Origin: a virus
Lineage: Duplodnaviria; Heunggongvirae; Uroviricota; Caudoviricetes
Virus record (IMG/VR): IMGVR_UViG_3300029736_000004
Length of the DNA stretch: 64,000 nucleotides
Strand: one strand, 5' to 3'
A program made the translations under genes and the position numbers. The notes under the pieces are model-generated. The model was not told where the DNA came from, searched no databases, and worked only from the letters and a program-made list of their open reading frames with translations. Position 1 is the stretch's first letter. The number at the start of each line of letters is the position of its first letter. Of the stretch, positions 6,680-59,340 are shown piece after piece.

Positions 6680-6742
6680 TGTTAGAAAATTAAGATTAAA
6701 ACATACTAACACAAGATTGTTAACGAAAATTATTTTTCTAAT
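6680..6742. promoter_or_regulatory. operator-like motif cluster (inverted pair plus extra half-site) upstream of capsid gene
   Basis: TGTTAGAAAATTAA at 6680-6693 with inverted partner ACTAACA at 6705-6711, plus TTTTTCTAAT at 6733-6742. Confidence 0.45.
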
Positions 6743-6822
6743 GCTATTGACTAAATAACAAAGTGAGTATTGTCACCTCGTCAAAAGAATCTTCACGCCG
6801 CGCCCGAATTTAGGGTTTAACC

Positions 6823-8520
6823 GTGAACAAGAACATTGAGCCAGCTCGTAAGCGCGAGCGCGAGATTATGAATCGGGCGGCAAGCGTCATGGCTATGACC
6901 GTCGATCCAACCACTGATGCTGCCGGTAACATGATTGCCGACAACGAAGTGATGATGGCTAACCTGGAAAAAGCTATCCAGAAAGAGCCTATGTTTGAAG
7001 GCGTTGAACCAGAAGCAGCTCGCCAGATCATTGGTAGCTGGGCCATGTCTATTCATGAATACAAACGCCAGTATGGGCATTATCCGGCAAGCGATGTATT
7101 AGCCAACGCCCATGTAGCACTTGAGCGCCTGATGATGGAGTCCGCTAAAGAGACTCATGAAGGCGCTGGCAAAGCCATGTTTGAATCAGTAGCCAAGGAC
7201 ATGCGCACCTCCGATGGTGTAATGAAGGTTGCACAATATGCCGCACTGATCCTGCCTGCTTCTCTCGGCGCAGCCACCAGCGACGCATGTACGTTTATCC
7301 CTTGTGATCGTGATGAAACCAATATTTACGAGCTGACCAACGTTGCTGGTACAAAATTCGGTACATTCGAGCAGGGCGATGAACTGAACATGCAGTCTGC
7401 TGGAGTGTATTCGCAGATGAAACGCCTGTACATCCTGACCGAAAAAGGAGATGGCAGCAAAACCACCTTCCAGTTTGATATCCAGAACTTCGAAGGCCAG
7501 GCCTGCCCACTGCGCCAGGGCTACAACAAACTGCTGATTAACCGCAAACCGTCCAAAGTAGATGATGGTGACGGCAACCTGTATTTCAACGACAAAGACG
7601 TCAACGGCAACTCTTTCTCTGTGACGGCAAAGGTTCGATACGATACCGGCGTTATCGATATCACCTTTAATGAAGCACCAGCAGAAGGCACAGAAATCGC
7701 TGTTCAGGTTGAAATCAACATTGAACGCAATCCGAACCTGATACCTGTCATTAACCAGTCCATGCGCAATTACGCCCTGCGCCCGTCGGAGTACGTGATC
7801 GCATCCGAACATACGGTTATGGCTGCATCTGACCTGAGCCGTGAACACGGACTCGAACTGGCAGCATTGCAATTCTCTGCAATGCGCAACTGGATTTCCC
7901 ACGAAATCGATATGATGCGCCTGCGCACTCTGGTATTCCACACCGTTTACGGTCGTGAATTTGATGTGGCACTGCCAGAAGCGCAGAACTACGAGTCGTG
8001 GGTTGGTTTAATTCGCCATGTTGTGAACGCGCTGTCACAGGAGATGGCTGACCGCACCCTGACTACCGGTATCCGTGGTGGCTTTGCTGGTGGCGATGCT
8101 GCTAACTTCCTGCGTTCCTTACCGCCGCAGCACTTCCAGTTGGCACCGGGCTATGTACAGTCGCCGTACATTCAATACATCGGCACCCTGTTTGGTTCCA
8201 TTCGTATCTACGAAGTGCCGAAGCCTATCTGCAAACAATTCCAGAAATATGGCTACGACTTCGGCCTGGACGACATCTATTTCTATGGTCGTGGCGAAGG
8301 CATTGGTAAAGCAGGCCTGGTCGCAGGTGATGCTGTGCCTGCTATTCCGTATGTCCACGAAACAAATCCAGCCCTGGTGAACCGCACCACTTTCTGGGGC
8401 AAAGCAATCAACGATGTGCATCCGCGCAACGGTGAGAACTATTTCACTCGCCTTCGCCTGACACGTTCGAAAGAAGGTGCGATTGACATGTTGAGCGGGC
8501 AAATCAACGAAAAAAAGTAG
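6823..8520 (+). CDS. major capsid protein precursor (putative, P1 gp23-like)
   Basis: 565 aa (~62 kDa), size and position next to sheath/tube genes as in P1 genes 23-22-21; assignment versus sheath not certain. Confidence 0.45.
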   Translation: MNKNIEPARKREREIMNRAASVMAMTVDPTTDAAGNMIADNEVMMANLEKAIQKEPMFEGVEPEAARQIIGSWAMSIHEYKRQYGHYPASDVLANAHVALERLMMESAKETHEGAGKAMFESVAKDMRTSDGVMKVAQYAALILPASLGAATSDACTFIPCDRDETNIYELTNVAGTKFGTFEQGDELNMQSAGVYSQMKRLYILTEKGDGSKTTFQFDIQNFEGQACPLRQGYNKLLINRKPSKVDDGDGNLYFNDKDVNGNSFSVTAKVRYDTGVIDITFNEAPAEGTEIAVQVEINIERNPNLIPVINQSMRNYALRPSEYVIASEHTVMAASDLSREHGLELAALQFSAMRNWISHEIDMMRLRTLVFHTVYGREFDVALPEAQNYESWVGLIRHVVNALSQEMADRTLTTGIRGGFAGGDAANFLRSLPPQHFQLAPGYVQSPYIQYIGTLFGSIRIYEVPKPICKQFQKYGYDFGLDDIYFYGRGEGIGKAGLVAGDAVPAIPYVHETNPALVNRTTFWGKAINDVHPRNGENYFTRLRLTRSKEGAIDMLSGQINEKK

Positions 8521-8661
8521 CAGTGGCGAACGTGTCAGTTTCACCAACGGCAATTGAAGTAAACGAAGGTGAAACTATCGCCGCGAGCACTTCAAAGACA
8601 CGAAAAACACCCAAAAAGAAGTAAAACCAGCCCCTGAATAGGGGGCTATATGGAGGAAAAA

Positions 8662-8940
8662 ATGGCTGATATCAAAGTAACTATTACCCCACCAAATGCG
8701 ACAGATAAAACTTTCACTGTCGAATCCGATCATCCGGAAATTGTGAGAGTTGATGGAACCACATGCACCGCAGTATCTGCTGGTACTGCGGTACTAACCA
8801 TCAAAACTACAGATGGAAATAAAACCGCAACGTGCACTGTAACGGTTAATGAAGCCGTAGTAAGTGTCGACTCTGTCAGCGTTGATCCGTCAACCAAAGA
8901 AGTGACGGTAGGTGACAGCTTCACGGTCGGCGAAGCCTGA
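8662..8940 (+). CDS. Ig-like (Big_2-type) domain protein, probable virion decoration
   Basis: Beta-rich T/V repeats (VTITPPNATDKTFTV...AVLTIKTTDG); GGAGGA SD before ATG 8662 (ORF track start 8650). Confidence 0.45.
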   Translation: MADIKVTITPPNATDKTFTVESDHPEIVRVDGTTCTAVSAGTAVLTIKTTDGNKTATCTVTVNEAVVSVDSVSVDPSTKEVTVGDSFTVGEA

Positions 8941-8944
8941 TAAA

Positions 8945-8976
8945 AGCCTCCCCATGCAAATGGGGAGGCTTCTCTC
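8945..8976 (+). terminator. terminator-like hairpin between Ig-like and sheath genes
   Basis: AGCCTCCCCA-TGCAAA-TGGGGAGGCT stem-loop followed by TCTCTC. Confidence 0.35.
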
Positions 8977-9005
8977 ATCCGCTCGATAAAGAGGAAAAGA
9001 GCAGC

Positions 9006-10661: not shown

Positions 10662-10704
10662 TTTATCTTCCCCGCTGAAACGCGGGGATGAATGAGGTTT
10701 CCTA

Positions 10705-11451
10705 ATGAAAAACTATTCTGTTGTTGATCCATTCATGCGCGCGCTATTTGCAGGCAAAACAGCCGATAACGCAGATACAGCCATACTGGAAAGCGCCAAA
10801 GATTCTGGTTGTTTTGAAAGTGGCGATAACGCCATCCTGGAAAGTGCCAAGAATGGAACCGATGGCGCGGATATCGAAGCCGCAATGATGGAAGCGGTGG
10901 AATCCCGTGCACAAAGTGACATCCGCAGTCTGGCAGCTTCAATGCTGGCGAGCTGGGTAGAAGATGGCGACCCTGAAGCGGATTCATTTGATGCGCTGGC
11001 AATCACAATGGCTGGCCTGGCCGACATTGACGAAGACACAGAACTGACCGACGAACAGGTTGACGCATATAACGACGCACTCGCGGCGTTGGCTAACGCG
11101 GCTGTGGCCCTGGGCGCTGATCAGGACGACGTCACCGAGATGATCGATGACGAAGATGACGCGGCAGCAGAACGCGTATTTGACGCACTGTCAGAAAGCG
11201 ATAGCGAAATGATGGAAGAAGCCATTGCAATTTACACCGTTGCTGGTGGCAATACAGCAATGCTCGAAGCTGTAAGCAAAAAAGTCGTCCGTGATGGCAA
11301 GGTTACTATCATCCGCAAACGCCCGCGCCCGCGTCGCATGACGTCCTTACAAAAGCAGGCGCTGAAAAAAGCGCGCCTTAAGGCGCATACGTCGATAGCT
11401 AACACTCGCCGCCGGAAGTCTATCCGCATTCGCAAAAAACGCGGCCTGTAA
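10705..11451 (+). CDS. hypothetical structural protein (acidic, basic C-terminal tail)
   Basis: 248 aa, very acidic body and Arg/Lys-rich C-terminus; GAGG SD. Confidence 0.45.
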   Translation: MKNYSVVDPFMRALFAGKTADNADTAILESAKDSGCFESGDNAILESAKNGTDGADIEAAMMEAVESRAQSDIRSLAASMLASWVEDGDPEADSFDALAITMAGLADIDEDTELTDEQVDAYNDALAALANAAVALGADQDDVTEMIDDEDDAAAERVFDALSESDSEMMEEAIAIYTVAGGNTAMLEAVSKKVVRDGKVTIIRKRPRPRRMTSLQKQALKKARLKAHTSIANTRRRKSIRIRKKRGL

Positions 11452-11469
11452 TTATGTAAGCCACCTGTA

Positions 11470-12087: not shown

Positions 12088-12095
12088 GAGTAATT

Positions 12096-12587: not shown

Positions 12588-12638
12588 TACCGATCCCGCT
12601 CAAAAGAGCGGGGTTATCCCCCTCCGTCCGGAGCATCT

Positions 12639-13190: not shown

Positions 13191-13203
13191 CACGGAGGGC
13201 TAC

Positions 13204-15244: not shown

Positions 15245-15384
15245 GTGAATTGCGTCACTTAAGGTGTAAAAATCACCCTCAATAGTTGCTGTTCGATCGA
15301 CAAAGATCCTTATTCAATACTCCCACAAATCACACACTCCCTATCCTCTGAAAAACTAACTGAACCTAGCTTTCGGAGGAATCC

Positions 15385-22820: not shown

Positions 22821-22899
22821 CAAAACAAAAGACCACTGGAAATCACAAACTGAACATACTGCCCTTCGATTTATTGCTTGTTAAAGGGGCTATGTTCGT

Positions 22900-27021: not shown

Positions 27022-27412
27022 AGTGAGTGCTTTTGTGACCTTTTTTAGTAATACAATCCTTTGGTACAAAAAAGCCGCCGTCCAGTCAATGACGGCGGGC
27101 AAAATGAACACTCAGTTAGTGGTATCTGAGAGGGGGGCATTATATTCACTGAATGACGCTTGTGAAGACTCACATGTCATCATTTTGTCCTCAAGAATCA
27201 GCTCACATCTTGCGCATTCAAGCGTATTTCTCTTTAAAGCCGTGTTTGGACCATTTTGTTGATACGCGAATTTGGCATCCTCCACGCTCTGAGTGACGAG
27301 GTTTACGGACCACCGGGCCATCATATGCATCCATTTTGTGTGAATGGCATTTAGTCGGGAAATAACAAACTGGATAAGTTGAAGCCGCGTTAAACGTCAT
27401 TTCTGGAGGGGT

Positions 27413-31136: not shown

Positions 31137-31197
31137 AAAATAGTCACCGAAATAACACACTTTTTACACTGCCTTTTTTACAGAAAGGTGGTTAATT

Positions 31198-33340: not shown

Positions 33341-33572
33341 AAGTTTCCTTATGCAATTTATCCATCATGGGCGATAAGAATAGTAACACAAAAGATATAA
33401 AACACAACAAAAATGTTTATAAACATAACTTCCTTGTTTGGTGGTTGCGTTTTTGGAAAAGCATTTCCGCATATGAAAAAACATCAGCATATGGTGAAAA
33501 CAACGAAAAATTACTGATGAAATCACACACTGGATAAGCTGCCACGAAATCGGAAACCTTTTGCGGTGAATC

Positions 33573-36283: not shown

Positions 36284-36297
36284 TTAATTTTCTAACA
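36284..36297. promoter_or_regulatory. operator-like site (TTAATTTTCTAACA)
   Basis: Reverse-orientation perfect copy of the TGTTAGAAAATTAA 14-mer. Confidence 0.45.
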
Positions 36298-36385
36298 CAG
36301 TGTGTTTTTATACACTGTTGATCCGACGGCGCGTGATCGAGTAGGATCGCGGTCACTGCTCCGGTAGCGACTGCCAAAAAAGCAA

Positions 36386-36409
36386 AAGCCGCTGAGAAGC
36401 GGCTTTTGG
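36386..36409 (+). terminator. rho-independent terminator
   Basis: AAGCCGCT-GAGA-AGCGGCTT followed by TTGGG. Confidence 0.4.
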
Positions 36410-36468
36410 GTGTATAAATCTCCGGACATAGATTTATACGGTAGATAGATTTTTCACGGTACTATCTG

Positions 36469-37428
36469 GTGAGTATTTTAAATTCAGTTTCAGTAACTTT
36501 CAACACTTCTGAGTATAAAAACAACACTGAATACCACAAAAAAATCAAAGGTCATCAGTTGAGTTTTTTTGCTCGTCATAGCGGTTTTCTTTCCCCTTCA
36601 CATAGCGCCATTATTGCCGAGTTCGCCAACCTGGCAGGAGCTACCGATGAATACATGATCCGTCGCTCATATGCTGATATGTCCGAGATTACAGGACGCA
36701 GTATTTCTACTGTGCGCCGGGCATTTACCGAAGCGACGAAGTGCGGAATGCTTGTTAAGCAGCATCAGGTAGCGAATAACAATGCTCAGGTGTGTAACGT
36801 GTACCGGTTTACAACACAATTTCTCCACTTCATTCATGTAGCAATGGAGATAGGGAGTAAGCAGGGCATCAAATTTGCCAACGCCACAAAACTGGTTAAG
36901 CAGTTGATTTCAAAGGTTCGTTATTTTTTTGAAACTGGGAACCCCCTGTTCAAATTGAACAAGTCCCCCCATGTTCAAAATGAACAGCCAATAGAAAATA
37001 AGAGTCACTCTATAGCCAAAAGAAGAGAAAGATCATGCGCGGTTCAGCCAAAGGCTTCACCAGCAGATAGTTCTCAAGCGGATAATGGCTTGCTGGATAA
37101 AAAAACAGTAATCAGGGAAGAACATACCAACCACTGCCTGGCGGCAGCAAAAGCGAGAGCTGCAAAGCGTCGTTCAGACGAGGGGTACGCAAAACGGCAG
37201 GCTCTGTATCGTACCGCTGAAAAACTGGCAAAAAAATTTGCATGGTTACGTAGTGCTACCACAGTGAATAAGCCCAAACGATCCAGCGCCCTGGATTTCT
37301 CTATGGATTATTCTGCTTCCCAGGGATGTGCAACCATCAATGAAGCATTTGACCTGATGAAACAGCGTGGCTATCGGTCTGAATTTGACCGGGAAGACTG
37401 GTCAATTCCGGAGGGCTTTCGGGGATGA
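36469..37428 (+). CDS. HTH DNA-binding protein, possible RepL-like replication initiator
   Basis: 319 aa; HTH-like ISTVRRAFTEATKCGMLVK; preceded by operator-like site and palindromes. Confidence 0.3.
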   Translation: MSILNSVSVTFNTSEYKNNTEYHKKIKGHQLSFFARHSGFLSPSHSAIIAEFANLAGATDEYMIRRSYADMSEITGRSISTVRRAFTEATKCGMLVKQHQVANNNAQVCNVYRFTTQFLHFIHVAMEIGSKQGIKFANATKLVKQLISKVRYFFETGNPLFKLNKSPHVQNEQPIENKSHSIAKRRERSCAVQPKASPADSSQADNGLLDKKTVIREEHTNHCLAAAKARAAKRRSDEGYAKRQALYRTAEKLAKKFAWLRSATTVNKPKRSSALDFSMDYSASQGCATINEAFDLMKQRGYRSEFDREDWSIPEGFRG

Positions 37429-37485: not shown

Positions 37486-37514
37486 TGTTAGAAAATTAAA
37501 TTGATGTTTCTAAT
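37486..37514. promoter_or_regulatory. operator-like inverted pair
   Basis: TGTTAGAAAATTAAATTGATGTTTCTAAT; additional half-site CTTTCTAATGTT at 37574-37585. Confidence 0.45.
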
Positions 37515-37599
37515 CAAGAATGTATGATTTATATCGTCACTAAAAAACAGCATCTGATAAAAATTCTGTTGATCTTTCTAATGTTCAGGCTTATATTCA

Positions 37600-37830
37600 T
37601 GCCGTCGTAGCAAATTCTGCGACCGGGTTTAGCAGCCTGAATGTTAGTGCGGACAACCGCAGATATCCGATATTGCGGTATTTTTGTGTCCGTAAAACCG
37701 CGTTACGCCCAAATTATGGTGGGGCGTGATGGGGAGGCTTCGGCCTGCTGGTTTCACTAACGCCAGTCTGCTAACCCCGTCACGTCCTGCCACCTGTTTA
37801 GCAGCGGGTAGCAGGTTGTTAAACCTGTTA
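37600..37830 (+). ncRNA. candidate c4-like antisense RNA / structured leader
   Basis: TTTAGCAGC at 37628 and 37798 is complementary to CTGCTAA at 37768; GAGGCTTCGGCCTGC tetraloop hairpin; lies upstream of icd-like and Rha-family genes. Confidence 0.3.
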
Positions 37831-37844: not shown

Positions 37845-38069
37845 ATGGTTAATGCCAATCCTTGCTCACGTCCAGAATTCATCTGGCGTTTTCACTCCCT
37901 GCAAAAACACTGCGATCACTTCGCAATTGCCGCAACTGAAAAAGAAGCCCGTTCTCTGATCCCGGATCAGTATGGCGTTCTCACTGGTCGTTTCTCTACT
38001 TCCCCACAACCAAACACCAATCCCTGGTATCGCAATATTACCAATCCCGGCATTGTGGAGGCTCACTGA
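37845..38069 (+). CDS. small protein translationally coupled to antirepressor (icd-like position)
   Basis: 74 aa; stop overlaps the start of the Rha-family gene (TGATG). Confidence 0.35.
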   Translation: MVNANPCSRPEFIWRFHSLQKHCDHFAIAATEKEARSLIPDQYGVLTGRFSTSPQPNTNPWYRNITNPGIVEAH

Positions 38070-38776
38070 TGGATATCTGCATTCTCGAAAAGCCATCAAT
38101 GACAAGCATTGAGATCGCGGAGCTGGTGGGAAAACGTCATGACAATGTGAAACGCACTATTGAGACATTAGCCAAAGGTGGCGTTATTGTTCGTCCTCAA
38201 ATTGAGGTTTTCGAAAAAATCAATAACTTAGGACTACGACGTAGTGTTGAGGCTTACGTCTTCGAAGGCGAGCAAGGCAAGCGCGATAGCATTATCGTCG
38301 TCGCGCAGCTCTCTCCCGAATTCACCGCCCGGCTGGTGGACCGCTGGCGCGAACTGGAAGAACAAGTACGCCAGCCGTTGACCGAAATAGAGATGATCGC
38401 TGCAATGGCTGCAAATGCAGTTCAGCAGCAAAAGCGGCTTCATGTTGTTGAGTCAAAGGTTAGCCAGGTTGCTGAAACCGTCGAGCAGATCAAGAAAGGC
38501 AATATTCCGGAAGGCTACATTGGCTATCGCCAGTTGGCGGCAAAATGCGGCCTGACTGAAGCCAAATGCCGCAACCTGGTCAACGCTTACCGGATACCCA
38601 CTGATACGCATGAGTTTTTGACGCCAGAGGGGGTATTGTCGCGTCGTACTATTGTGGCCTTATCTCCCTTCATGAATGCCTTTACCCTGATGATGTCGGA
38701 GGCTGAACACCGAGGAAAACGCTGGTATCACCCAAGGATGGGACAATTCCAGGTGATCGGTTGGGGAGGCGAGTGA
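38069..38776 (+). CDS. Rha-family phage regulatory protein / antirepressor-like
   Basis: N-terminus MTSIEIAELVGKRHDNVKRTIETL matches the Rha-domain signature. Confidence 0.6.
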   Translation: MDICILEKPSMTSIEIAELVGKRHDNVKRTIETLAKGGVIVRPQIEVFEKINNLGLRRSVEAYVFEGEQGKRDSIIVVAQLSPEFTARLVDRWRELEEQVRQPLTEIEMIAAMAANAVQQQKRLHVVESKVSQVAETVEQIKKGNIPEGYIGYRQLAAKCGLTEAKCRNLVNAYRIPTDTHEFLTPEGVLSRRTIVALSPFMNAFTLMMSEAEHRGKRWYHPRMGQFQVIGWGGE

Positions 38777-46952: not shown

Positions 46953-47213
46953 ATGCGAAAGAATCGTAGGTTTACGATCGACGACTTAAAAGCGTACTCA
47001 CAAGGGAAGGGATACGCCCTTGAATACCACCGTTATAAGCGGGTATTTACCCTGCGGCATATAGAAAACCCTTCGAAATGGGGATGGATTTATTTTCCGC
47101 ACACTGACGATAAGCTGGTGGGGCTTGTTGATGATTTATCCTATGAAGGATGGATGATTGCTATCGACAAGGCGGTTACGGAAATTAACGAACCGGATAA
47201 AATAAACCATTAA
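46953..47213 (+). CDS. hypothetical protein
   Basis: 86-aa ORF, tightly spaced after the upstream gene. Confidence 0.4.
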   Translation: MRKNRRFTIDDLKAYSQGKGYALEYHRYKRVFTLRHIENPSKWGWIYFPHTDDKLVGLVDDLSYEGWMIAIDKAVTEINEPDKINH

Positions 47214-47389
47214 AAATAACAAGTTGGGTAAATGACATACAATTTACCCGGCTTGTTGACCCGCATCACCATTTACTCTAAAAACAAGTCCGACCTGTTG
47301 CATCCGCTTATCTCTTCAGTAGTATTCCCCTCGGTTTTGATAAAACTAACGCTCTTGTTATTATCGTTTTCATGATTTCAGGAAGTTTG

Positions 47390-47400
47390 TGTTAGAAATT
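47390..47400. promoter_or_regulatory. operator-like half-site (TGTTAGAAATT)
   Basis: Overlaps the start region of the VRR-NUC gene. Confidence 0.4.
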
Positions 47401-48404: not shown

Positions 48405-48444
48405 TGCCTGAGTCTTTTTATTGAAATTGCATACTAATAAAATA

Positions 48445-48458
48445 TGTTAGAAAACTAA
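48445..48458. promoter_or_regulatory. operator-like site (TGTTAGAAAACTAA)
   Basis: 20 bp upstream of the 48479 gene; ATACTAATA variant half-site at 48431. Confidence 0.4.
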
Positions 48459-48478: not shown

Positions 48479-49687
48479 ATGAGTCAGCAAGTAGAATCAT
48501 CAAGCCTGGAGATCATCTCAACCGCAATTGAAACGCTGCGGACACAAATCGCGCTTATACAGAAACGAAATCCGGGCGATGACCTGTCAAAGCGACTGCA
48601 TGAGAGCGTCATTGCCACTACAGATAACCTGGTGGCGGAAATCAACCAGCTCCTTGATGATGGGGCAGTTGATTACAATAAGCTGGTGGATCAGTTTGAG
48701 GAGTATCAGCAAGCCGTTAATGATGGCTTGATCCGTTTTTCTCAAGTCACTGGTGTATCAGCGACAGTTGAAAGCCTGGGGGATGCAGTTAATCAATTTG
48801 CCGCGAATATGCGTAATGAGATCGGCAATCTGGAGGCGCGTCTTGAGCAGGCAAATACACTGCGCAAATCTGCTGAAGTCGATTTGAGTCGTTACAAAAA
48901 AGACTATCCGCCAAGCCTGACAAAACGACTGGATGTTGCGGAGAAAGATAACCGCACGCTGAAAAGAGAGCGTCGCGAACTAAAAGAGCGTTTAACCAAG
49001 CTAAATCAGCAATGCGTTGAGTATCAAGGCGAACTCGTCACACTGCGTAAAAAGTTAGCAGCGGCGCAGAGCATTATTGAAACATTGAAACGAGAGTGCT
49101 CAGAGCTTGGTCATGATCTGAATCGCGCCTGTGGCATGGGGCAAAGGCCAGAGACATTCCCGCTAATGTATGACGGAAGAGAAGCTATTGCCTATATCCA
49201 TGAGTTTCCGCATGGTCTGGTCGCGGAGACTGGGCAACGTGGCGAAGCGTTGCTGACGGCAAATTACCATCAGCAAATCAGAACCAGCCGCCTGCTGACG
49301 ATGGATGTGATCCCGTCAGTATGGGGAACGCCGCTTTACTACCGAATTCCTGGCTTCGAAACTGACTGGAATACCGACATAGACGAATGTCTGGCAGATA
49401 AAATTATGGCGTACCTTGAAACGGATTTTCCACGCTTGCATCGCCGGATTATGGACTCTAAGGATGCACCGATCGACGAATTGAAAATGCGTCCAGAGAC
49501 GTTGGAGGCAATCAAGCAGACTGAGTTTGATACAGTGTTCAGTGTGGCCTGCATTCCAAGCAGCTTTCATGAAAGCATTCCGTTCATGCAGGGCGATCGC
49601 CGTCAGGAAATAATTGATGCTTGCCGGGTATGGGCGAACGAGTGGGATAAGAAGAACGGTGGAGTTGAAAATCTTTACGGGAAATAA
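48479..49687 (+). CDS. hypothetical coiled-coil protein
   Basis: 402 aa; N-terminal half predicted coiled coil, C-terminal globular part. Confidence 0.45.
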   Translation: MSQQVESSSLEIISTAIETLRTQIALIQKRNPGDDLSKRLHESVIATTDNLVAEINQLLDDGAVDYNKLVDQFEEYQQAVNDGLIRFSQVTGVSATVESLGDAVNQFAANMRNEIGNLEARLEQANTLRKSAEVDLSRYKKDYPPSLTKRLDVAEKDNRTLKRERRELKERLTKLNQQCVEYQGELVTLRKKLAAAQSIIETLKRECSELGHDLNRACGMGQRPETFPLMYDGREAIAYIHEFPHGLVAETGQRGEALLTANYHQQIRTSRLLTMDVIPSVWGTPLYYRIPGFETDWNTDIDECLADKIMAYLETDFPRLHRRIMDSKDAPIDELKMRPETLEAIKQTEFDTVFSVACIPSSFHESIPFMQGDRRQEIIDACRVWANEWDKKNGGVENLYGK

Positions 49688-49688
49688 T

Positions 49689-49720
49689 ATGTTAGAAAAT
49701 TAAAATTGTTTTTCTAACAT
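49689..49720. promoter_or_regulatory. operator-like perfect palindrome
   Basis: ATGTTAGAAAATTAAAATTGTTTTTCTAACAT; another site TGTTAGAAAGTAAA at 49840-49853. Confidence 0.5.
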
Positions 49721-50548
49721 ATTGATTATGGGGTTAACTTAACATAGAATTTTTCGTGCTGGTGGGGAGCTTCCCATGTCGCTTGCGGGTTTGATAGTCA
49801 CTTCATTGTCTTTCCCCACCAGCATCAAACAAATTTAAGTGTTAGAAAGTAAATTTTAAGGTAAGGGAAAGCTCCGGCACCGTGCAAATACATGCCCGGC
49901 AGGTTTAGTGCGTAAAGTGGCTTCAGCGAGAGCATTTTACGGAGTAAACGACAGTGACTTGAGCCACGGAAGGTCTTTTTATGGTGTTCATTGATGATGA
50001 TCTGGCAGTGAGTATGTTAAGTGGGCCAGGCTGCATCGGGTCATCATCAGTGCACATCCTCAACGTTAAGGAGGCGCAGAGTTGGGTTTTCCTCTTATTT
50101 TGCTGACTCTGAGTCTCCTTAACGTTGCGGTAATGCACCTATGCGGATGTGGCCTTGCATTGTGTCTTGAAAGAATGGGGTAAGGCCGGGGATATCCCCA
50201 GGGGGAGGCACCCCCGCTGCAACGAACAGCCACAGACGGCAGTCGAGTGATGGAAACGTGCAAAGACTTTAAACCTCGTTACGGCTGGCGTGGCAAACGC
50301 GACAACCGAGACAGAGCGGTGACGGGCGGAGAGAGAGCCGCTTCAAGATAAAAGCCGACTATGGATTCCTTTCTGCGGGCCTTTGAAAGTGAATCTTGCT
50401 CAGGCAGTCGGCTTTTATGTTGATACGTAGCGATAGCCGCGACAGGCGCGGCGGCAAGTATGGCGGGGTAGTGACTCCTTCCCCCTTATGACGCCGATTT
50501 GCCAGGCTGGCCATACGCCTAAGTGGCAATACCGCGAGTGGGATATTT

Positions 50549-50574
50549 GCCCACCTTCGGGTGGGTGTTTTTTC
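50549..50574 (+). terminator. rho-independent terminator inside non-coding region
   Basis: GCCCACC-TTCG-GGTGGGT followed by GTTTTTTC. Confidence 0.6.
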
Positions 50575-51034
50575 AGGGTTTTCGTCATGGTTAGCGACTT
50601 TGCGGCGGTTTAGAACCCGACCATTAAAGTAAATGCAAACGATGATCTGATGATGGTAGCGGCCTAAGAAGCCTGACGCCACGGGGTATGAGTCGTCCCC
50701 CGTCAAAAAATCGACCGCAGAGTGTCCCCGTCTGTGTATTAGGGAACGGGGAGGCATAACAGGCAAGGGCGCTGGTGTGATTAACCAGATGAATGAGAAG
50801 GGTCAGGTCTTTCTGGTCAGCGCCCTTACCTGTTACGTCCTTACCGCGTAACAGCCATTGGTTAATGGCTTTCTGGAATAATGTCTTGTAACGGGTATAT
50901 CCCGTCATGCTGAAGGCGCTAATCACGCTGGAAGCCAGGGTTATGCATCCCCTGTTACCGAATTGCAGCCAGGGCGCGGTGCGCCGAAAAGCATACGGAG
51001 GTGGAAGCCCTCGCCGGAGACGTACCCGGCAAGT

Positions 51035-51111
51035 GATGGTGTAGCTCAGTAGGATAGAGCAGCAGCCTTCTAAGCTGTCGGTCGGTGGTTCGAATCCACC
51101 CACCATCGCCA
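51035..51111 (+). tRNA. tRNA-Arg (anticodon TCT)
   Basis: Cloverleaf: acceptor GATGGTG/CACCATC, D-arm TAGCTCAGTAGGATAGAGC, anticodon loop CTTCTAA, T-arm GGTGGTTCGAATCCACC, CCA end. Confidence 0.85.
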
Positions 51112-51116
51112 ATTTA

Positions 51117-51203
51117 GGGGAGTTAGTCCGTAGGGGTAGCGGGGTAGACTGTAAATCTACTGTCATTGCGACTCGGATGGTTCGACTCCATCACTCCCCA
51201 CCA
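51117..51203 (+). tRNA. tRNA-Tyr (anticodon GTA)
   Basis: Acceptor GGGGAGT/ACTCCCC, anticodon stem-loop GTAGA-CTGTAAA-TCTAC, long variable arm, T-loop TTCGACT, CCA. Confidence 0.8.
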
Positions 51204-51207
51204 AATT

Positions 51208-51283
51208 GCCGGTTTAGCTCAGTTGGTAGAGCAGTCGCTTTGTAAGCGAATGGTCAGCGGTTCGATCCCGTTAACCGGCACCA
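51208..51283 (+). tRNA. tRNA-Thr (anticodon TGT)
   Basis: Acceptor GCCGGTT/AACCGGC, D-arm GCTCAGTTGGTAGAGC, anticodon loop TTTGTAA, T-loop TTCGATC, CCA. Confidence 0.8.
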
Positions 51284-51296
51284 ACACAACAGGTAA

Positions 51297-51361
51297 GGGT
51301 ATTTTGCGACATCGGAGATCGCCGAGCTTGGCAGAGGGTTCGAATCCCTACGAAGTACCCT
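51297..51361 (+). other. tRNA-like element lacking a canonical anticodon arm (possible degenerate tRNA)
   Basis: Acceptor-like GGGTATT/AGTACCC, D-arm-like GCGA...TCGC, T-arm GAGGGTTCGAATCCCTA, but only 11 nt between D and T arms; extended outer stem CACAACAGGTAAGGG/CCCTTGCCGTTGTG. Confidence 0.25.
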
Positions 51362-51471
51362 TGCCGTTGTGATGAATGCACAGGCTGATGTGCCGCAACT
51401 ACAGTAGTGCGCGCTTTGCGGGGCTTGCTACAACCCTGTGTCGGAGTTCAGCACCGACCATCACAATCACT

Positions 51472-51558
51472 GGAGAGTAGGGAGCATGGTGCTCAAGCGG
51501 TCTTGAAAACCGTCCCATTGCGCAAGCGATGATGGTTCGATTCCATTACTCTCCGCCA
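51472..51558 (+). tRNA. tRNA-Ser (anticodon TGA)
   Basis: Acceptor GGAGAGT/ACTCTCC, anticodon stem-loop GCGGT-CTTGAAA-ACCGT, long variable arm, T-arm GATGGTTCGATTCCATT, CCA. Confidence 0.8.
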
Positions 51559-51849
51559 GCGCAACGTTAAGAGTATTTGGCTAATTAAGCGAATGCCGGA
51601 AGCAGAACCGGATCACCAAATGCGTACAGGCGTCATCGCCGCCCAGTCAGCCAAATGCTCTTACCATTGCGGTGAATGCGGCTAAGCGCACGCGGAACAG
51701 TTAAAACAGTAAAGGTGGTCTTTTTACTGGCGTAACGAGCATCCATAAGTGATCCGGCGTTAATTGTTAACTGGTTAACGTCACCGGGAGGCACCCGGCA
51801 CCGCAACCTAACAGCAATGGCGTTTTGTCTTAAAAGGTGGCTGCAAGTG

Positions 51850-51978
51850 ATGGATTTTTGGGCGTTTGCCGATAAAAACCCGGAGTGGACATTATTGTTT
51901 CTGCTGGTGGTTGCATACGGGGTAGAGCAAGCGGCAAAAGCCTTACGCGGTTCTGGCAAAAAGCGTAAGCGTAATTAA
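51850..51978 (+). CDS. small hydrophobic ORF (42 aa) between tRNA genes
   Basis: MDFWAFADKNPEWTLLFLLVVAYGVEQAAKALRGSGKKRKRN; not in the ORF track (under 60 aa); AAAGGTGG upstream. Confidence 0.25.
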   Translation: MDFWAFADKNPEWTLLFLLVVAYGVEQAAKALRGSGKKRKRN

Positions 51979-51987
51979 CAGTAATCT

Positions 51988-52063
51988 GGCCCTTTAGCTC
52001 AGTGGTTAGAGCGGGCGACTCATAATCGCACGGTCACCGGTTCAAGTCCGGTAGGGGCCACCA
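51988..52063 (+). tRNA. tRNA-Ile2-like (anticodon CAT; Met not excluded)
   Basis: GGCCCTTTAGCTCAGTGGTTAGAGCGGGCGACTCATAATCGC...GGTTCAAGTCCGGTAGGGGCCACCA closely resembles E. coli ileX-type tRNA (recalled). Confidence 0.8.
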
Positions 52064-53473: not shown

Positions 53474-53505
53474 TGTTAGTAAATTAATATTAATTTTCTA
53501 ATACA
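53474..53505. promoter_or_regulatory. operator-like inverted pair upstream of Lpa-like gene
   Basis: TGTTAGTAAATTAATATTAATTTTCTAATACA. Confidence 0.45.
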
Positions 53506-53580
53506 TCATGTTTTTGACAGTCTTCTCAGTATTAACAAGCTGATTATCATCCCCTCGGTCTTTTTCTATCCGGGGGATAA

Positions 53581-53973
53581 ATGGAGCAAATCAGTAGCGC
53601 CGAAATAGCGGATATCATGATCAGGGCTGACTGCTATCTGACGGTCACCGAAATCACCAGCCGTGCAAAAGCACAATATCCTCACCTTCATGTGTCGCGC
53701 GTAAACGTAAATAACATCATACGTTTTTTTGTTCGTTCCAGTCGTGCCATTTGCGAAATAGACGACCGCGTATACCCCCGGAAATATTGGTTACATGGCC
53801 TGAATGGATACCAGTTCAAGGTGCGCGGGCGCACTCCTGAATTCGGTCGGCTGTTGGTGAAAAACACCAACCGAAAGATAGAAGCTCAATTACGAAAGGA
53901 GCAGCGTCAGTTGGTGGCGATGACTAACCAGCTATGGAACGCCGCTGTGAAAAAACGTGAGGCTTCCCTATGA
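53581..53973 (+). CDS. putative late-gene activator (Lpa-like, by position)
   Basis: 130 aa immediately upstream of pacA with an operator-like palindrome in its promoter region; no motif-level support. Confidence 0.3.
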   Translation: MEQISSAEIADIMIRADCYLTVTEITSRAKAQYPHLHVSRVNVNNIIRFFVRSSRAICEIDDRVYPRKYWLHGLNGYQFKVRGRTPEFGRLLVKNTNRKIEAQLRKEQRQLVAMTNQLWNAAVKKREASL

Positions 53974-56842: not shown

Positions 56843-56843
56843 A

Positions 56844-56870
56844 AGCCCCGGCGATTCGGGGCTTGTGGGT
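56844..56870 (+). terminator. terminator-like hairpin between convergent pacB and c1 candidate
   Basis: AGCCCCG-GCGATT-CGGGGCT hairpin. Confidence 0.4.
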
Positions 56871-56879
56871 GGTTTGCGA

Positions 56880-57917
56880 TTACCAGAGTTTTGCCGCGTA
56901 CATCGTTTGTGTGAATGTGTACCCATAGCGTTCTTCAACGCTTTTACCGTATTTTTTCCTGGCTTCAGTAAGGCGGATGCCTGTCAGGTCATCGCCGGAG
57001 GCAATCATAACTTCCAGTAGTTCCAGGTCCATTTTATCCAGCCTTGCCATTGCATCTTTAGCCTCTTGAATTTTCCGGCTAACGATCTGGTGTATGGCTG
57101 GATCGGCTTCGGCCAGCATTTTATCTGATTTGTTTTTTAAACTCTGATTGCGGATATCAATGTTTCTCAGGATATATGACTTCACGACATAGCTTGGCTG
57201 CTGCTTTTCCAGATCACGAACCCGATAAAGGTCAAATTCGCCGAGAAGTCCGCACGGAAGCGGTTTAATGCCAGTGTAAATGGTAAGGGTACGGCGCTCA
57301 CCAACGTTGTTAACAACGGGAATCTCTGTGTTTGCTTTTCTTGCAAAGATCAGCGCACCGTGCGCACCCACTCGGAAGCGTGAAAGTCCATTGTTGCCCT
57401 CGATATTGGTGGTAATCACCACATCGGTATAACCTTCTTTTCTTGCGCGGTATACCTCGCCCTCACGTTCAGCGGCGAAGAATCTGCGTTCTTCTTCAAG
57501 CGCACCGACAACCTGTGAAAATATCCTGTTTTTCATGCTTTTCTTTATAGTTTTATCGTATTTTTTCAGCAGGTCTTCGCGCGTAAATGTTCTCGTTGTG
57601 GTTGCGCTTTGCATAACGATATGCGTACTCTGATTAGTATCCTCAACAATGAATGGGATCGGTAAATAAACCGACTCAACAATGTTTGAGGCTTTGTCAT
57701 CATCCTTGCGACACAGATCAACAAAGGCTTTCCATTCGGCTATGCATTTTTCAGCTTCTTCTAATACAGCCGGATCATGTGTTAATGCAACATGGCGAAA
57801 TTCCTCGCCAACATAACTGGTATCATGGAAAACAGAGTTTGCGACCACCAGCTCTTTCCACCGTTCGGCGGTTTGCAGGAACCGTTTGTACTCATTCTCG
57901 ATCGACTTCTTACTCAT
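56880..57917 (-). CDS. candidate immunity repressor (c1 position)
   Basis: 345 aa between pacB and the rox-like site, as c1 lies in P1-family pac-c1 regions; operator-like sites at 57936-57946 and 58021-58030 in its upstream region. Confidence 0.35.
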   Translation of the reverse strand: MSKKSIENEYKRFLQTAERWKELVVANSVFHDTSYVGEEFRHVALTHDPAVLEEAEKCIAEWKAFVDLCRKDDDKASNIVESVYLPIPFIVEDTNQSTHIVMQSATTTRTFTREDLLKKYDKTIKKSMKNRIFSQVVGALEEERRFFAAEREGEVYRARKEGYTDVVITTNIEGNNGLSRFRVGAHGALIFARKANTEIPVVNNVGERRTLTIYTGIKPLPCGLLGEFDLYRVRDLEKQQPSYVVKSYILRNIDIRNQSLKNKSDKMLAEADPAIHQIVSRKIQEAKDAMARLDKMDLELLEVMIASGDDLTGIRLTEARKKYGKSVEERYGYTFTQTMYAAKLW

Positions 57918-57931
57918 TATTCCTACTCGAT

Positions 57932-57946
57932 TTAGTTTTCTAACAT
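57932..57946. promoter_or_regulatory. operator-like site (TTAGTTTTCTAACAT)
   Basis: 15 bp upstream of the c1-candidate start; variant ATTAGAAAAT at 58021-58030. Confidence 0.45.
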
Positions 57947-58102
57947 AAAAGTCCTGTGACAAATTTATGCTGAATAACAAGGTGAGTAAAGGATAAAACC
58001 GCTTTTTTTTGATTGTTCCTATTAGAAAATGTAGCCAGGAACGGCTACCGCATGGCTGACGGATTTGCGAAGTGATCTGGTCGGTGTTTTTTTGGGAAAA
58101 AA

Positions 58103-58134
58103 GCCCCGATTCCAACTTTAAATAATTGGCATTA
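58103..58134. other. rox-like site-specific recombination site
   Basis: CAACTTTAAATAAT-TGGC-ATTATTTAAAGTTA: 14-bp inverted arms with 4-bp spacer; 31/32 identical to the reverse complement of the D6 rox site as I recall it. Confidence 0.65.
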
Positions 58135-58296
58135 TTTAAAGTTAGGCTATAATCTCCAGTAAACAGGTAGTATTGACAAGGATGAAAAATCATGCCTCGA
58201 ATCAAAGGCTTGAATTTTGAAAATTAACTTATAACTACCCTGTCAGTTTTCTATTTTTCATGTAGCGTTATCTGTATATAGAGGTTTAATAGTTTC

Positions 58297-59325
58297 ATGG
58301 GTGAACTAGTTATCTCCGGCGGTTCTGGTGGTTTTCTGCGCGATATTGGCACCGAATACCAGGAAGCTGCAAAAAACTTTATGCAGTTCATGAACGACCA
58401 GGGAGCTTATGCCCCAAATACGCTTCGAGATCTCCGTCTGGTGTTTCATTCCTGGGCGCGGTGGTGTAACTCGCGCCAGCGCCCCTGGTTCCCGATTACG
58501 CCGGAAATGGCCCGCGAGTATCTTCTCCAGTTGCATGAGGCCGATCTGGCTTCGACCACCATTGATAAGCACTATGCCATGCTTAACATGCTGCTTTCGC
58601 AATGTGGCCTCCCGCCGCTCTCGGACGATAAAAGTGTGTCTCTGGCCATGCGGCGCATCCGGCGCGAAGCGGCAACGGAAAAAGGCGAGCGAACAGGCCA
58701 GGCTATACCGTTGCGGTGGGATGATCTGAAATTGCTCGACGTGTTGCTGTCCCGTTCCGAGCGGCTGGTGGACCTGCGCAATCGGGCGTTTCTCTTCGTG
58801 GCATACAATACCCTGATGCGTATGTCAGAAATCTCGCGCATCCGCGTCGGAGATCTGGAACAAACAGGTGACACTGTAACGCTGCATATTTCACACACGA
58901 AGACCATCACGACCGCCGCCGGACTTGATAAGGTGCTTTCTCGTTACACTACCGCCGTACTGAACGACTGGCTGGAGGTGTCCGGACTTCGAGAACATCC
59001 GGACGCGGTGCTATTCCCGCCAATACACCGCAGTAATAAGGCCAGAATCACGACAACGCCCCTTACTGCACCTGCAATGGAGAAAATATTCAGCGATGCC
59101 TGGGGGTTGCTGAACAAACGAGATGCCACGCCGAACAAAGGAAGATACCGGACGTGGACAGGCCATAGTGCGCGTGTTGGTGCGGCAATTGATATGGCTG
59201 AGAAACAGGTGTCAATGGTCGAGATCATGCAGGAAGGCACATGGAAAAAGCCCGAAACACTTATGCGATATTTGCGCCGTAGCGGGGCATCCGTTGGTGC
59301 AAATAGTCGCCTGATGGATTCATAA
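58297..59325 (+). CDS. dre: Cre-family tyrosine recombinase (Dre-like)
   Basis: WARWCNSRQRPWFPITPEMAREYLLQL...LPPLSDDKSVSLAMRRIRRE aligns with Cre WAAWCKLNNRKWFPAEPEDVRDYLLYL...SNAVSLVMRRIRKE; C-terminal WTGHSARVGAAIDMA catalytic region; rox-like site 160 bp upstream. Confidence 0.7.
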   Translation: MGELVISGGSGGFLRDIGTEYQEAAKNFMQFMNDQGAYAPNTLRDLRLVFHSWARWCNSRQRPWFPITPEMAREYLLQLHEADLASTTIDKHYAMLNMLLSQCGLPPLSDDKSVSLAMRRIRREAATEKGERTGQAIPLRWDDLKLLDVLLSRSERLVDLRNRAFLFVAYNTLMRMSEISRIRVGDLEQTGDTVTLHISHTKTITTAAGLDKVLSRYTTAVLNDWLEVSGLREHPDAVLFPPIHRSNKARITTTPLTAPAMEKIFSDAWGLLNKRDATPNKGRYRTWTGHSARVGAAIDMAEKQVSMVEIMQEGTWKKPETLMRYLRRSGASVGANSRLMDS

Positions 59326-59326
59326 A

Positions 59327-59340
59327 TTAATTTTCTAACA
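59327..59340. promoter_or_regulatory. operator-like site (TTAATTTTCTAACA)
   Basis: Perfect reverse-orientation 14-mer just after the dre stop. Confidence 0.45.

What the first reader, a model, noticed from the sequence alone, without database searches (positions are those of the whole stretch)
6680..59340. Dispersed 14-bp operator-like motif (TGTTAGAAAATTAA) at 11 intergenic sites, four as inverted pairs
Five perfect copies of the 14-mer (6680, 37486, 49690 forward; 36284, 59327 reverse) plus close variants occur in 64 kb, almost always in gene-start regions. Four sites are inverted pairs with about 32-bp span (6680-6711, 37486-37514, 49689-49720, 53474-53505). Sites sit before the capsid gene, the RepL-like gene, the c4-like region, the VRR-NUC gene, the Lpa-like gene and the c1 candidate. 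This is the pattern expected of a master immunity repressor regulon, analogous to the dispersed C1 operators of P1, but the sequence differs from the P1 operator as I recall it (only a TCTAA core in common). A late-promoter element is the alternative reading.
Basis: partly seen in the sequence, partly recalled or inferred. Interest (0 to 1): 0.7.

Follow-up and report, generated by a model that had tools for sequence, protein, structure and literature searches.

The report
Repressor operator set of D6-like phage-plasmid
The repeated 14-base motif is real and is most likely the set of binding sites through which the master repressor (a distant relative of phage P1's C1) of a D6-like plasmid prophage of E. 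coli keeps its lytic genes silent; this is what one expects for this phage family, but with a different site sequence and geometry than in P1.

Summary
TGTTAGAAAATTAA occurs 5 times exactly (0 expected) and 12 times with up to 2 mismatches (0.57 expected). A matrix scan gives 13 strong sites, 12 of them in the 9% of the window that is non-genic.

The window is a D6-like, P1-family plasmid prophage of E. coli. The motif sits where P1 has experimentally mapped C1 operators: c1, lpa, the c4-icd-ant immunity region, repL, pmgS, pmgM and the tRNA/tci ("ban") operon. It overlaps predicted sigma-70 promoter elements at several sites.

The P1 operator is absent. The encoded C1 homologue is only 21% identical to P1 C1. 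In 80 related loci the C1 type and the motif type go together without exception.

The rival "late promoter" reading is rejected. A different motif, AAAT[A/C]ACA[A/C]A[C/G]T-N3-TAnnnT, marks the late operons.

Only two of the four claimed inverted pairs are strong.

Verdict: a heteroimmune counterpart of the P1 C1 regulon, so a new member of a known kind. Binding by C1 is inferred, not shown.

Side lead: the C1 model resembles only Tus, a monomer that binds asymmetric DNA sites.

The parts
6680..6693 (+). Strong site (exact 14-mer) in the divergent region between the leftward orf52-like gene (6271-6663, -) and capsid gene 23 (6823-8520, +)
6698..6711 (-). Weak partner site TGTTAGTATGTTTT (5 mismatches, offset 18)
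6730..6743 (-).
36284..36297 (-). Exact site just after the pro stop codon and 172 nt upstream of repL (36469-37428). Same context as P1 OrepL. No convincing promoter was found at it.
37486..37515 (.). Exact site 37486-37499 (+) plus weak partner 37502-37515 (-). Together they overlap the -35 hexamer and spacer of the predicted promoter TTGATG-16-TATGAT (37501-37528), upstream of the c4 RNA.
37570..37583 (-). Weak core site CATTAGAAAGATCA in the spacer of the second c4 promoter TTGATC-17-TATATT (37569-37597)
37591..37797 (+). c4-a1b1 target element (37591-37643) and C4 antisense RNA (37712-37797). This is the immI unit that the 37486 operator would control.
   Evidence: Rfam RF03163 53.9 bits, RF01695 70 bits
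47390..47403 (+). Site TGTTAGAAATTTGA ending at the ATG of the pmgM/VRR-NUC gene. It lies about 26 nt downstream of the predicted promoter TTGATA-16-TATTAT (47337-47364).
48445..48458 (+). Site before pmgS (ATG 48479). Its 5' flank plus first bases form the -10 hexamer TATGTT of the predicted promoter TTGAAA-16-TATGTT (48421-48448).
49690..49719 (.). Strong inverted pair, 49690-49703 (+) and 49706-49719 (-). The -10 hexamer TATGTT of the predicted promoter TTGAAA-17-TATGTT (49665-49693) overlaps it, and a second promoter, TTGATT-17-TAGAAT, lies at 49722-49750. It heads the tRNA/tci unit, the position of the divalent P1 Obanab.
49840..49853 (+). Site TGTTAGAAAGTAAA in the long non-coding leader before the tRNA cluster. 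Conserved in D6 (13 of 14 bases).
53474..53503 (.). Strong inverted pair, 53474-53487 (+) and 53490-53503 (-), 78 nt upstream of the lpa ATG (53581). Same position as P1 Olpa.
57932..57945 (-). c1-proximal site, 14 nt upstream of the c1 ATG (57917). Invariant, together with the 5'UTR, in four C1 allele classes.
58020..58033 (+). c1-distal weak site TATTAGAAAATGTA in inverted orientation, about 88 bp from the proximal site. Its core TTTTCTAA is the only invariant island in a hypervariable stretch.
59327..59340 (-). Exact site right after the stop codon of the cre-like recombinase gene (58297-59325), before a hairpin and the orf117-dUTPase operon. Position and orientation are kept in L085-L087.
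56880..57917 (-). c1 gene: a 345-aa distant homologue of the P1 C1 repressor and the proposed binding protein

Best explanation
The motif is the operator of the C1-type master repressor of a D6-like, P1-family plasmid prophage. The product of c1 (56880-57917, minus strand) recognises an asymmetric site of about 17 bp whose conserved core is TGTTAGAAAA. It binds singly at most places and as two oppositely oriented units at the lpa and tRNA/tci promoters. Occupied sites would block RNA polymerase in three ways: by covering the -10 hexamer (pmgS and the tRNA/tci unit), by covering the -35 hexamer and spacer (c4-icd-ant), or by sitting just downstream of the start site (pmgM, c1). In the lysogen this would silence the late activator Lpa, lytic replication, the antirepressor operon and several accessory operons, and would also autoregulate c1. 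A proximal and a distal site about 88 bp apart flank the c1 promoter, which suggests autoregulation by DNA looping. What is shown here: the motif, its statistics, its positions, its promoter overlaps, and its conservation and co-occurrence with the C1 type. What is inferred: that C1 is the protein that binds, that it binds as a monomer, that binding represses, and that it loops DNA.
For: (1) Statistics.
(2) Identity of the element: 92% identical to phage D6 and 98-99% to E. coli plasmids.
(3) Positions match the C1 operators annotated in P1 record AF234172: Oc4/P2c4/P1c4/c4 matches 37486, two promoters and c4 RNA. Olpa lies 71 nt before lpa, and the window pair 78 nt before lpa. The divalent Obanab before the tRNAs matches the divalent 49690/49706 before the tRNAs. 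OpmgR, O26/Oppp, OrepL and Oc1 also have counterparts. In the part of D6 outside the window, further sites lie near hrdC-dmt, ref, ppp and mat, the genes at which P1 has Odmt, Oref, Oppp and Omat.
(4) Promoter overlap.
(5) The P1 operator consensus has no match with up to 3 mismatches in the window. P1 itself has 14 such matches in half its genome.
(6) The c1 product is a C1 homologue: PHROG 1678 at 1.7e-159, the same family as P1 C1. Its close relatives carry PF27008, Phage_P7_repressor_C1. It is 21% identical to P1 C1, E = 2e-7.
(7) Co-occurrence: all 31 loci with D6-type C1 have the motif and no P1 operator. All 49 loci with P1-type C1 have P1 operators and only chance-level D6 motifs.
(8) Conservation: the core is kept at the same positions in D6 and in elements whose C1 is 44-50% identical. 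The c1-proximal site and the distal core are invariant within a diverged region.
(9) Published P1 facts: C1 binds 22 dispersed operators with an asymmetric 17-bp consensus and controls RepL and Lpa (PMC8546580).
Against: There is no binding or expression data; everything is by position and analogy. The co-occurrence of C1 type with motif type is confounded with lineage, because D6-like and P1-like elements differ in many other genes too. Two exact sites (36284, 59327) lie between a stop codon and a hairpin, have no recognisable promoter, and point against local transcription, so simple promoter occlusion does not explain them. The pair upstream of lpa ends 20 nt before the only predicted promoter. 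Site conservation between the window and D6 (85%) is only modestly above that of the flanks (79%), and the partner half-sites of both strong pairs are not conserved in D6. No coi-like ORF and no recognisable lxc were found, so the P1 circuit is not fully reproduced.
Confidence: 0.85

Rival explanations
1. The motif is the upstream element of Lpa-dependent late promoters.
For: One site cluster lies upstream of the capsid gene. Lpa here is only 34% identical to P1 Lpa, and the P1 late box is absent, so a new late element is expected somewhere in the genome.
Against: A different motif, AAAT[AC]ACA[AC]A[CG]T-N3-TAnnnT, occurs 7 times in the window against 0.26 expected. Each copy lies 22-50 nt before the first gene of a late operon: the upfC-like gene, gene 23, pmgB, R, lydA, ddrB and prt. 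It occurs 10 times at equivalent places in D6, including gene 7 and mat. The capsid gene has its own copy (6753-6773) downstream of the 14-mer cluster. The 14-mer is absent from 6744-36283, the whole tail, lysis and head block. Instead it precedes c1, lpa itself, c4-icd-ant and repL, which are early or immunity functions.
Confidence: 0.03
2. The motif is the operator of some other DNA-binding protein of the element, not C1. Candidates include the Rha/Roi-type regulator at 38069-38776 or an unrecognised regulator.
For: The assignment to C1 rests on analogy. The co-occurrence with C1 type would hold equally for any protein specific to the D6 lineage.
Against: The sites fall at the same genes where C1 binding was mapped experimentally in P1. 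One site lies 14 nt upstream of c1 itself, with a second about 88 bp away, in five diverged elements; this is the signature of an autoregulated repressor. No second candidate shows such a link.
Confidence: 0.08
3. The motif is not a protein operator. It is either a shared early-promoter core (the -10 hexamer TATGTT plus the initial transcribed sequence) or an RNA-level signal in 5' leaders.
For: At 48443-48448 and 49688-49693 the motif's 5' end is the predicted -10 hexamer TATGTT. Most single sites point in the direction of transcription and lie in leaders.
Against: Position relative to promoters varies: over the -35 hexamer at 37501, about +20 at 47390, and upstream of the promoter at 53474. 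Two sites form 30-bp palindromic pairs. Two exact sites point against transcription, in stop-codon-to-hairpin gaps. No complementary sequence exists in the c4 RNA, because every reverse-complement occurrence is already counted as a site.
Confidence: 0.04

Closest known systems
Phage P1/P7 C1 repressor and its dispersed operators (immC; consensus ATTGCTCTAATAAATTT)
   Same: A homologous repressor family (PHROG 1678; PF27008 on close relatives). Many asymmetric sites of about 17 bp are scattered over a plasmid-prophage genome of about 90 kb. The sites lie at the same genes (c1, lpa, c4-icd-ant, repL, pmgR/S, pmgL/M, the ban/tRNA operon, and in D6 also the hrdC-dmt, ref, mat and ppp regions). Single and divalent operators are mixed. 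Sites overlap sigma-70 promoter hexamers (PMC8546580).
   Different: The repressor is only 21% identical and carries about 60 extra residues, mostly a C-terminal helical extension absent from P1 C1. It falls far below the NCBIfam C1 equivalog cut-off (23.9 against 500 bits). The operator sequence differs: no P1-type site within 3 mismatches, and at most 6 of 17 or 9 of 14 bases shared depending on the register (my own alignment). The divalent geometry differs: the 14-mers are separated by 2 bp in a 30-bp span, whereas the P1 Obanab 17-mers overlap by 6 bp in a 28-bp span. No coi ORF lies upstream of c1 and no lxc is recognisable.
Phage D6 (MF356679) and D6-like plasmid prophages
   Same: The window is 92% identical to D6 over the region tested, with the same gene order. 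D6 carries the same core motif at the same places.
   Different: C1 is only 81% identical to D6 C1, making it one of several C1 alleles (100, 81 and 65% classes). The D6 GenBank record annotates no operators or late promoters. Both strong inverted pairs of the window are single sites in D6. Whether the D6 genome paper (PMC5800970, not held) describes the motif could not be checked.
Stoperators of Cluster A mycobacteriophages (L5 gp71 type)
   Same: Twenty to thirty asymmetric repressor sites of 13-14 bp are spread through the genome, only some of them in promoters. Motifs differ between heteroimmune relatives (PMC6550527). In the window some sites lie downstream of start sites or in gaps without a promoter.
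   Different: The repressor family is unrelated (helix-turn-helix against C1 type). There are far fewer sites here, none in the 30-kb late block, and no strict orientation rule: 36284 and 59327 point against transcription.
Tus-Ter replication terminator complex of E. coli
   Different: There is no sequence or profile similarity. TM-scores are only 0.34-0.40. The function is repression of transcription, not fork arrest. C1 has an extra C-terminal helical domain. The similarity rests on a predicted model built from a 10-sequence alignment.
P1 Lpa-dependent late promoters (-22 box AAGTNACTT, 4 nt, then the -10 hexamer)
   Same: Both are dispersed short motifs in front of operons of a P1-family phage.
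   Different: The 14-mer has neither the position nor the gene set of late promoters. A separate D6-type late element fills that role.

Membership tests
P1-type C1 repressor-operator regulon (immC) | Element encodes a C1-family repressor | tested here: met
   PHROG 1678 at 1.7e-159 over the full length, the same family as P1 C1. BLASTP to P1 C1: 21% identity, E = 2e-7. Homologues of 44-97% identity carry PF27008, Phage_P7_repressor_C1. The NCBIfam equivalog cut-off is not reached (23.9 against 500 bits), so it is a distant homologue and not an equivalog.
P1-type C1 repressor-operator regulon (immC) | Many dispersed, asymmetric operators of about 17 bp, some of them divalent | tested here: met
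   Thirteen strong sites at 10 loci in 64 kb. Informative positions span about 17-18 bp without internal symmetry. There are two strong divalent sites.
P1-type C1 repressor-operator regulon (immC) | Operator sequence ATTGCTCTAATAAATTT (P1/P7 immunity specificity) | tested here: not met
   No match with up to 3 mismatches in the window, against 14 in half of P1.
P1-type C1 repressor-operator regulon (immC) | Operators at the promoters of c1, lpa, c4-icd-ant, repL and the ban operon | tested here: met
   Positions compared with the P1 annotation, using Rfam c4, Pfam Lpa, tRNAs and promoter scans. No promoter was found at the repL site.
P1-type C1 repressor-operator regulon (immC) | C1 protein physically binds the sites and represses transcription | not testable with these tools
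   Needs EMSA or footprinting and reporter assays.
P1-type C1 repressor-operator regulon (immC) | Accessory proteins Coi (antirepressor gene upstream of c1) and Lxc (corepressor) | tested here: not met
   No separate ORF of 20 aa or more on the c1 strand between c1 and the rox-like site; the only ORF there is the in-frame upstream (TTG-start) extension of c1 itself. The 86-aa ORF at the lxc position (46953-47213) has no BLASTP similarity to Lxc. Distant or relocated analogues are not excluded.
P1 Lpa-dependent late promoter | Conserved box at a fixed distance upstream of a -10 hexamer, in front of late (morphogenesis and lysis) operons | tested here: not met
   The 14-mer is absent from 6744-36283. 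A different motif meets this definition: 7 hits against 0.26 expected, and 10 in D6.
Cluster A mycobacteriophage stoperators | Asymmetric sites mostly outside promoters, all oriented with transcription, bound by a helix-turn-helix repressor | tested here: not met
   Most sites overlap or adjoin predicted promoters. Two exact sites point against transcription. The repressor family is unrelated.
Tus (Ter-binding protein) fold | Two alpha/beta domains joined by antiparallel beta strands that form a DNA-binding cleft, with detectable structural similarity to Tus | tested here: inconclusive
   [not shown]

The most novel reading that the evidence does not exclude
C1-family phage repressors (P1, P7, D6 types), whose fold has never been solved, may be Tus-like monomeric DNA clamps. 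That would explain how one protein chain reads a long asymmetric site of about 17 bp. The D6 branch would then have added a C-terminal helical domain that lets bound monomers pair. Pairing would account for the 30-bp inverted operators and for the conserved spacing of about 88 bp between the proximal and distal sites at c1, which suggests looping. It could also replace the missing Coi/Lxc layer. This would link a replication-fork barrier protein and a phage immunity repressor in one structural family.
Probability: 0.3. Interest if true: 0.65.

Novelty: new member of a known kind. Interest (0 to 1): 0.4.

Why it matters
D6-like phage-plasmids are common in E. coli, Salmonella and relatives: 613 PLSDB plasmids match this region. 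Their lysis-lysogeny control has not been dissected, and the D6 record carries no regulatory annotation.

A defined operator (core TGTTAGAAAA) and a defined late-promoter element give a direct map of the repressed regulon and the late regulon. They predict heteroimmunity with P1. They also supply parts for engineering, induction assays and the annotation of these plasmids.

The operator core is kept across C1 proteins that are only 44-50% identical. Together with the Tus-like model, this offers a tractable system for studying how a monomeric repressor reads an asymmetric site. The finding does not change the known picture of P1-family immunity.

Tried and rejected
1. Late-promoter reading. The P1 late box AAGTNACTT-N4-TAnnnT gave only two poor matches in the window. 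A distinct D6-type late motif was found instead, so this reading is rejected.
2. P1 operator scan of the window: nothing.
3. Literature. The D6 genome paper (DOI and PMC5800970) and the P1 genome paper (PMC523184) are not held. Full-text searches for the motif strings, for 'phage D6' with 'C1 repressor', and for Tus with C1 repressor found nothing relevant. Prior description of the D6 operator therefore cannot be excluded.
4. Pfam (local copy) and the PDB by sequence gave nothing for C1. hhalign of the C1 profile against E. coli Tus was negative.
5. BFVD fold search: no significant hit. The afdb50 library was unavailable.
6. Lxc candidate at the syntenic position: no similarity. Coi: no ORF.
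7. Strict promoter scans found no sigma-70 promoter at 6680, 36284, 57932 or 59327. I read weaker candidates by eye, such as TTAACA-17-TTTAAT on the minus strand at 6680-6720 and TTTACT-17-TAAATT before c1; these are inference only.
8. Site-against-flank conservation between window and D6 was only modestly informative: 85% against 79%.

Full report
**Observation**

The 14-mer TGTTAGAAAATTAA occurs exactly five times, at 6680+, 37486+, 49690+, 36284- and 59327-. One hundred dinucleotide-preserving shuffles gave no exact copy. With up to two mismatches there are 12 sites against 0.57 expected.

A weight matrix built from these sites finds one more strong site, 6730(-). It also shows that information extends beyond the 14-mer, giving T(A/G)TGTTAGAAAA(T/C)TAAnnT, about 17-18 bp with no internal symmetry.

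Twelve of the 13 strong sites lie wholly in the 9.2% of the window not covered by ORFs, tRNAs or the c4 RNA (P = 4e-12). The 13th, 47390, ends at the ATG of the VRR-NUC/pmgM gene. Eleven of the 12 copies of the 8-mer TTAGAAAA are non-genic.

Each is a 14-mer, 2 bp, then the reverse 14-mer, 30 bp in all. In the other two (37486/37502 and 6680/6698) the partner has five mismatches and keeps only the core.

**What the window is**

The window is 92% identical to Escherichia phage D6 and 98-99% identical to about 90-kb E. coli plasmids. It is therefore a D6-like, P1-family plasmid prophage.

The D6 record annotates genes by their P1 names but carries no operators or late promoters. Rfam finds the C4 antisense RNA (37712-37797) and its a1b1 target (37591-37643). 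Pfam identifies Lpa at 53581-53973. ARAGORN finds five tRNAs at 51035-52063.

**The repressor**

The ORF at 56880-57917(-) encodes 345 aa. Its relationships are:

- 81% identical to D6 'prophage repressor'.
- 21% identical to P1 C1 over 241 residues, E = 2e-7.
- In the same PHROG (1678) as P1 C1.
- Its database homologues, 44-97% identical, carry PF27008, Phage_P7_repressor_C1.
- Far below the NCBIfam C1 equivalog cut-off.
- No solved relative by sequence.

It is a distant member of the C1 family with a C-terminal helical extension that P1 C1 lacks.

**Positions compared with P1**

P1 record AF234172 annotates the experimentally defined C1 operators and late promoters (operator scan). According to PMC8546580, P1 C1 binds 22 dispersed operators with the asymmetric consensus ATTGCTCTAATAAATTT and controls RepL and Lpa, among other genes.

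| P1 operator and context | Counterpart in the window |
|---|---|
| Oc4 overlaps the -35 hexamer of P2c4, followed by P1c4, the a1/b1 targets and c4 | 37486/37502 overlaps the -35 hexamer and spacer of TTGATG-16-TATGAT (37501-37528), followed by TTGATC-17-TATATT (37569-37597), a1b1 and c4 |
| Olpa, 71 nt before lpa | 53474/53490 pair, 78 nt before lpa |
| Divalent Obanab heading the operon with tRNAs and tciA-C | Divalent 49690/49706 heading the tRNA/tci unit; its left half supplies the -10 hexamer of TTGAAA-17-TATGTT |
| OpmgRa/b before pmgR-pmgS | 48445, which supplies the -10 hexamer of TTGAAA-16-TATGTT just before pmgS |
| O26/Oppp around pmgL-pmgM | 47390, at the pmgM start and about 26 nt after TTGATA-16-TATTAT |
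| OrepL | 36284, 172 nt before repL |
| The Oc1 group | 57932, 14 nt before the c1 ATG, plus a distal inverted core at 58020-58033 |

In the part of D6 not covered by the window, further sites lie near hrdC-dmt, ref, ppp/pdcB and mat/simB. These are the genes at which P1 has Odmt, Oref, Oppp and Omat. The P1 operator itself has no match in the window, even with three mismatches.

**Co-occurrence and conservation**

A scan of IMG/VR with a C1 alignment returned 80 loci. All 31 loci with D6-type C1 (65-100% identity) carry the motif (1-4 copies within about 6 kb on either side of c1) and no P1 operator. All 49 loci with P1-type C1 carry 1-8 P1 operators. Six of those 49 have one D6-type match, about the number expected by chance.

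This association is perfect, but it is confounded with lineage. It says the motif belongs to the D6 lineage; it does not say which protein binds it.

Three elements whose C1 is only 44-50% identical (L085-L087) keep the core TGTTAGAAAA at the same positions: c1-proximal, c1-distal, after cre and before lpa. L085 and L086, which extend further, also keep it before pmgM and, in L086, before pmgS. In L085 and L086, position 11 is mostly A rather than T/C.

The spacing between the proximal and distal c1 sites is 87-89 bp in the window, D6, L085 and L086, and 100 bp in L087. In an alignment of four c1 upstream regions, the proximal site with the 5'UTR and the distal core TTTTCTAA are invariant while the stretch beyond them is scrambled.

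Between the window and D6, sites are 85% identical and flanks 79%. The second half-sites of both strong pairs are not conserved. This fits recognition of single asymmetric sites, with pairing as an optional extra.

**The late-promoter alternative**

From the P1 annotation, P1 late promoters read AAGTNACTT-N4-TAnnAT. The window has no convincing copy.

Upstream of the late operons I found another motif, AAAT[A/C]ACA[A/C]A[C/G]T-N3-TAnnnT. It has seven hits against 0.26 expected. Each lies 22-50 nt before the first gene of an operon: the upfC-like gene, gene 23, pmgB, R, lydA, ddrB and prt. D6 has ten at matching places.

The capsid gene has its own copy (6753-6773) downstream of the 14-mer cluster. 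The 14-mer is absent from the whole 6744-36283 morphogenesis and lysis block. The 14-mer is therefore not the late element. The 6680-6743 cluster more plausibly controls the divergent leftward gene (6271-6663).

**Mechanism**

The best-supported reading is that C1 binds these sites and represses by occlusion of the -10 hexamer, occlusion of the -35 hexamer, or a roadblock just downstream of the start site. It would also autoregulate c1.

P1 C1 is a monomer that can loop DNA between operators; this comes from my own knowledge of the older literature and was not checked here. The conserved spacing of about 88 bp at c1 suggests the same here, by inference.

Two things remain unexplained. The exact sites at 36284 and 59327 lie between a stop codon and a hairpin, without a recognisable promoter, and point against transcription. 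They may be auxiliary or looping sites, as some P1 operators seem to be. In addition, no coi ORF and no recognisable lxc were found.

**Structural lead**

TM-scores are low (0.34-0.40) and there is no sequence or profile similarity. No paper in the library links C1 and Tus. Tus is a monomer that clamps an asymmetric Ter site, so the resemblance would fit C1's asymmetric operators. It remains a lead only.

**Novelty and verdict**

The kind of system, a C1 repressor with dispersed asymmetric operators in a P1-family plasmid prophage, is textbook. What differs here is:

- the operator sequence;
- the geometry of the divalent sites (half-sites 2 bp apart, rather than overlapping by 6 bp as in P1 Obanab);
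- the very diverged and longer repressor;
- the apparent lack of coi and lxc.

I could not read the D6 genome paper, so an earlier description of the motif cannot be excluded. The GenBank record and the searchable literature do not contain it.

I rate the finding as a new member of a known kind. Confidence in the C1-operator explanation is 0.85, and interest is 0.4.

Noticed in passing
window 3998-4018, 6753-6773, 15327-15347, 22840-22860, 27360-27380, 31150-31170, 33520-33540 (all +): A second dispersed motif, AAAT[A/C]ACA[A/C]A[C/G]T-N3-TAnnnT, has 7 hits against 0.26 expected. Each lies 22-50 nt before a late operon: the upfC-like gene, gene 23, pmgB, R, lydA, ddrB and prt. D6 has 10 at equivalent places. 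It is probably the D6-type Lpa-dependent late promoter, and it differs from the P1 box AAGTNACTT. Lpa here is 34% identical to P1 Lpa.
   Followed up: partly
[not shown]
   Followed up: partly
window 36383-36503 (-): A predicted antisense promoter, TTGAAA-17-TAAAAT (36503 to 36475, 10 of 12 matches), lies at the 5' end of repL. It is followed on the same strand by a strong terminator hairpin (36408 to 36383). This would give an antisense RNA of about 90 nt over the repL leader, reminiscent of P1 PaskilA.
   Followed up: no
window 58114-58153: A rox-like (lox-like) inverted repeat, AACTTTAAATAAT-TGGC-ATTATTTAAAGTT (58114-58143), lies between c1 and the cre-like recombinase gene and is conserved in all C1 allele classes. 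A near-consensus promoter, TTGGCA-16-TATAAT (58126-58153, 11 of 12), starts inside it and points toward the recombinase gene.
   Followed up: no
window 57946-58113; loci L005, L009, L028, L032: c1 exists in several allele classes (100, 81 and 65% identity, plus 44-50% in more distant elements). The stretch between the distal operator core and rox is hypervariable, while both operator cores and the c1 5'UTR are invariant.
   Followed up: partly
window 46953-47213 (+): An 86-aa ORF sits directly after ulx, where P1 has the corepressor gene lxc (82 aa), but shows no BLASTP similarity to Lxc. No coi-like ORF lies between c1 and rox.
   Followed up: partly
window 49720-52063: About 1.3 kb without convincing ORFs follows the divalent operator, before a cluster of five tRNAs: Arg-tct, Tyr-gta, Thr-tgt, Ser-tga and Met-cat. 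D6 annotates three (Ser, Thr, Asn). P1 has a dicF-like region at the equivalent place, but no Rfam family reached threshold here.
   Followed up: no
L085, L086 (C1 about 50% identical to the window's): Operator position 11 is A in 11 of 12 sites (TGTTAGAAAAA...) instead of the T/C of the window and D6. This may be a shift in immunity specificity that goes with C1 divergence. The sample is small.
   Followed up: no
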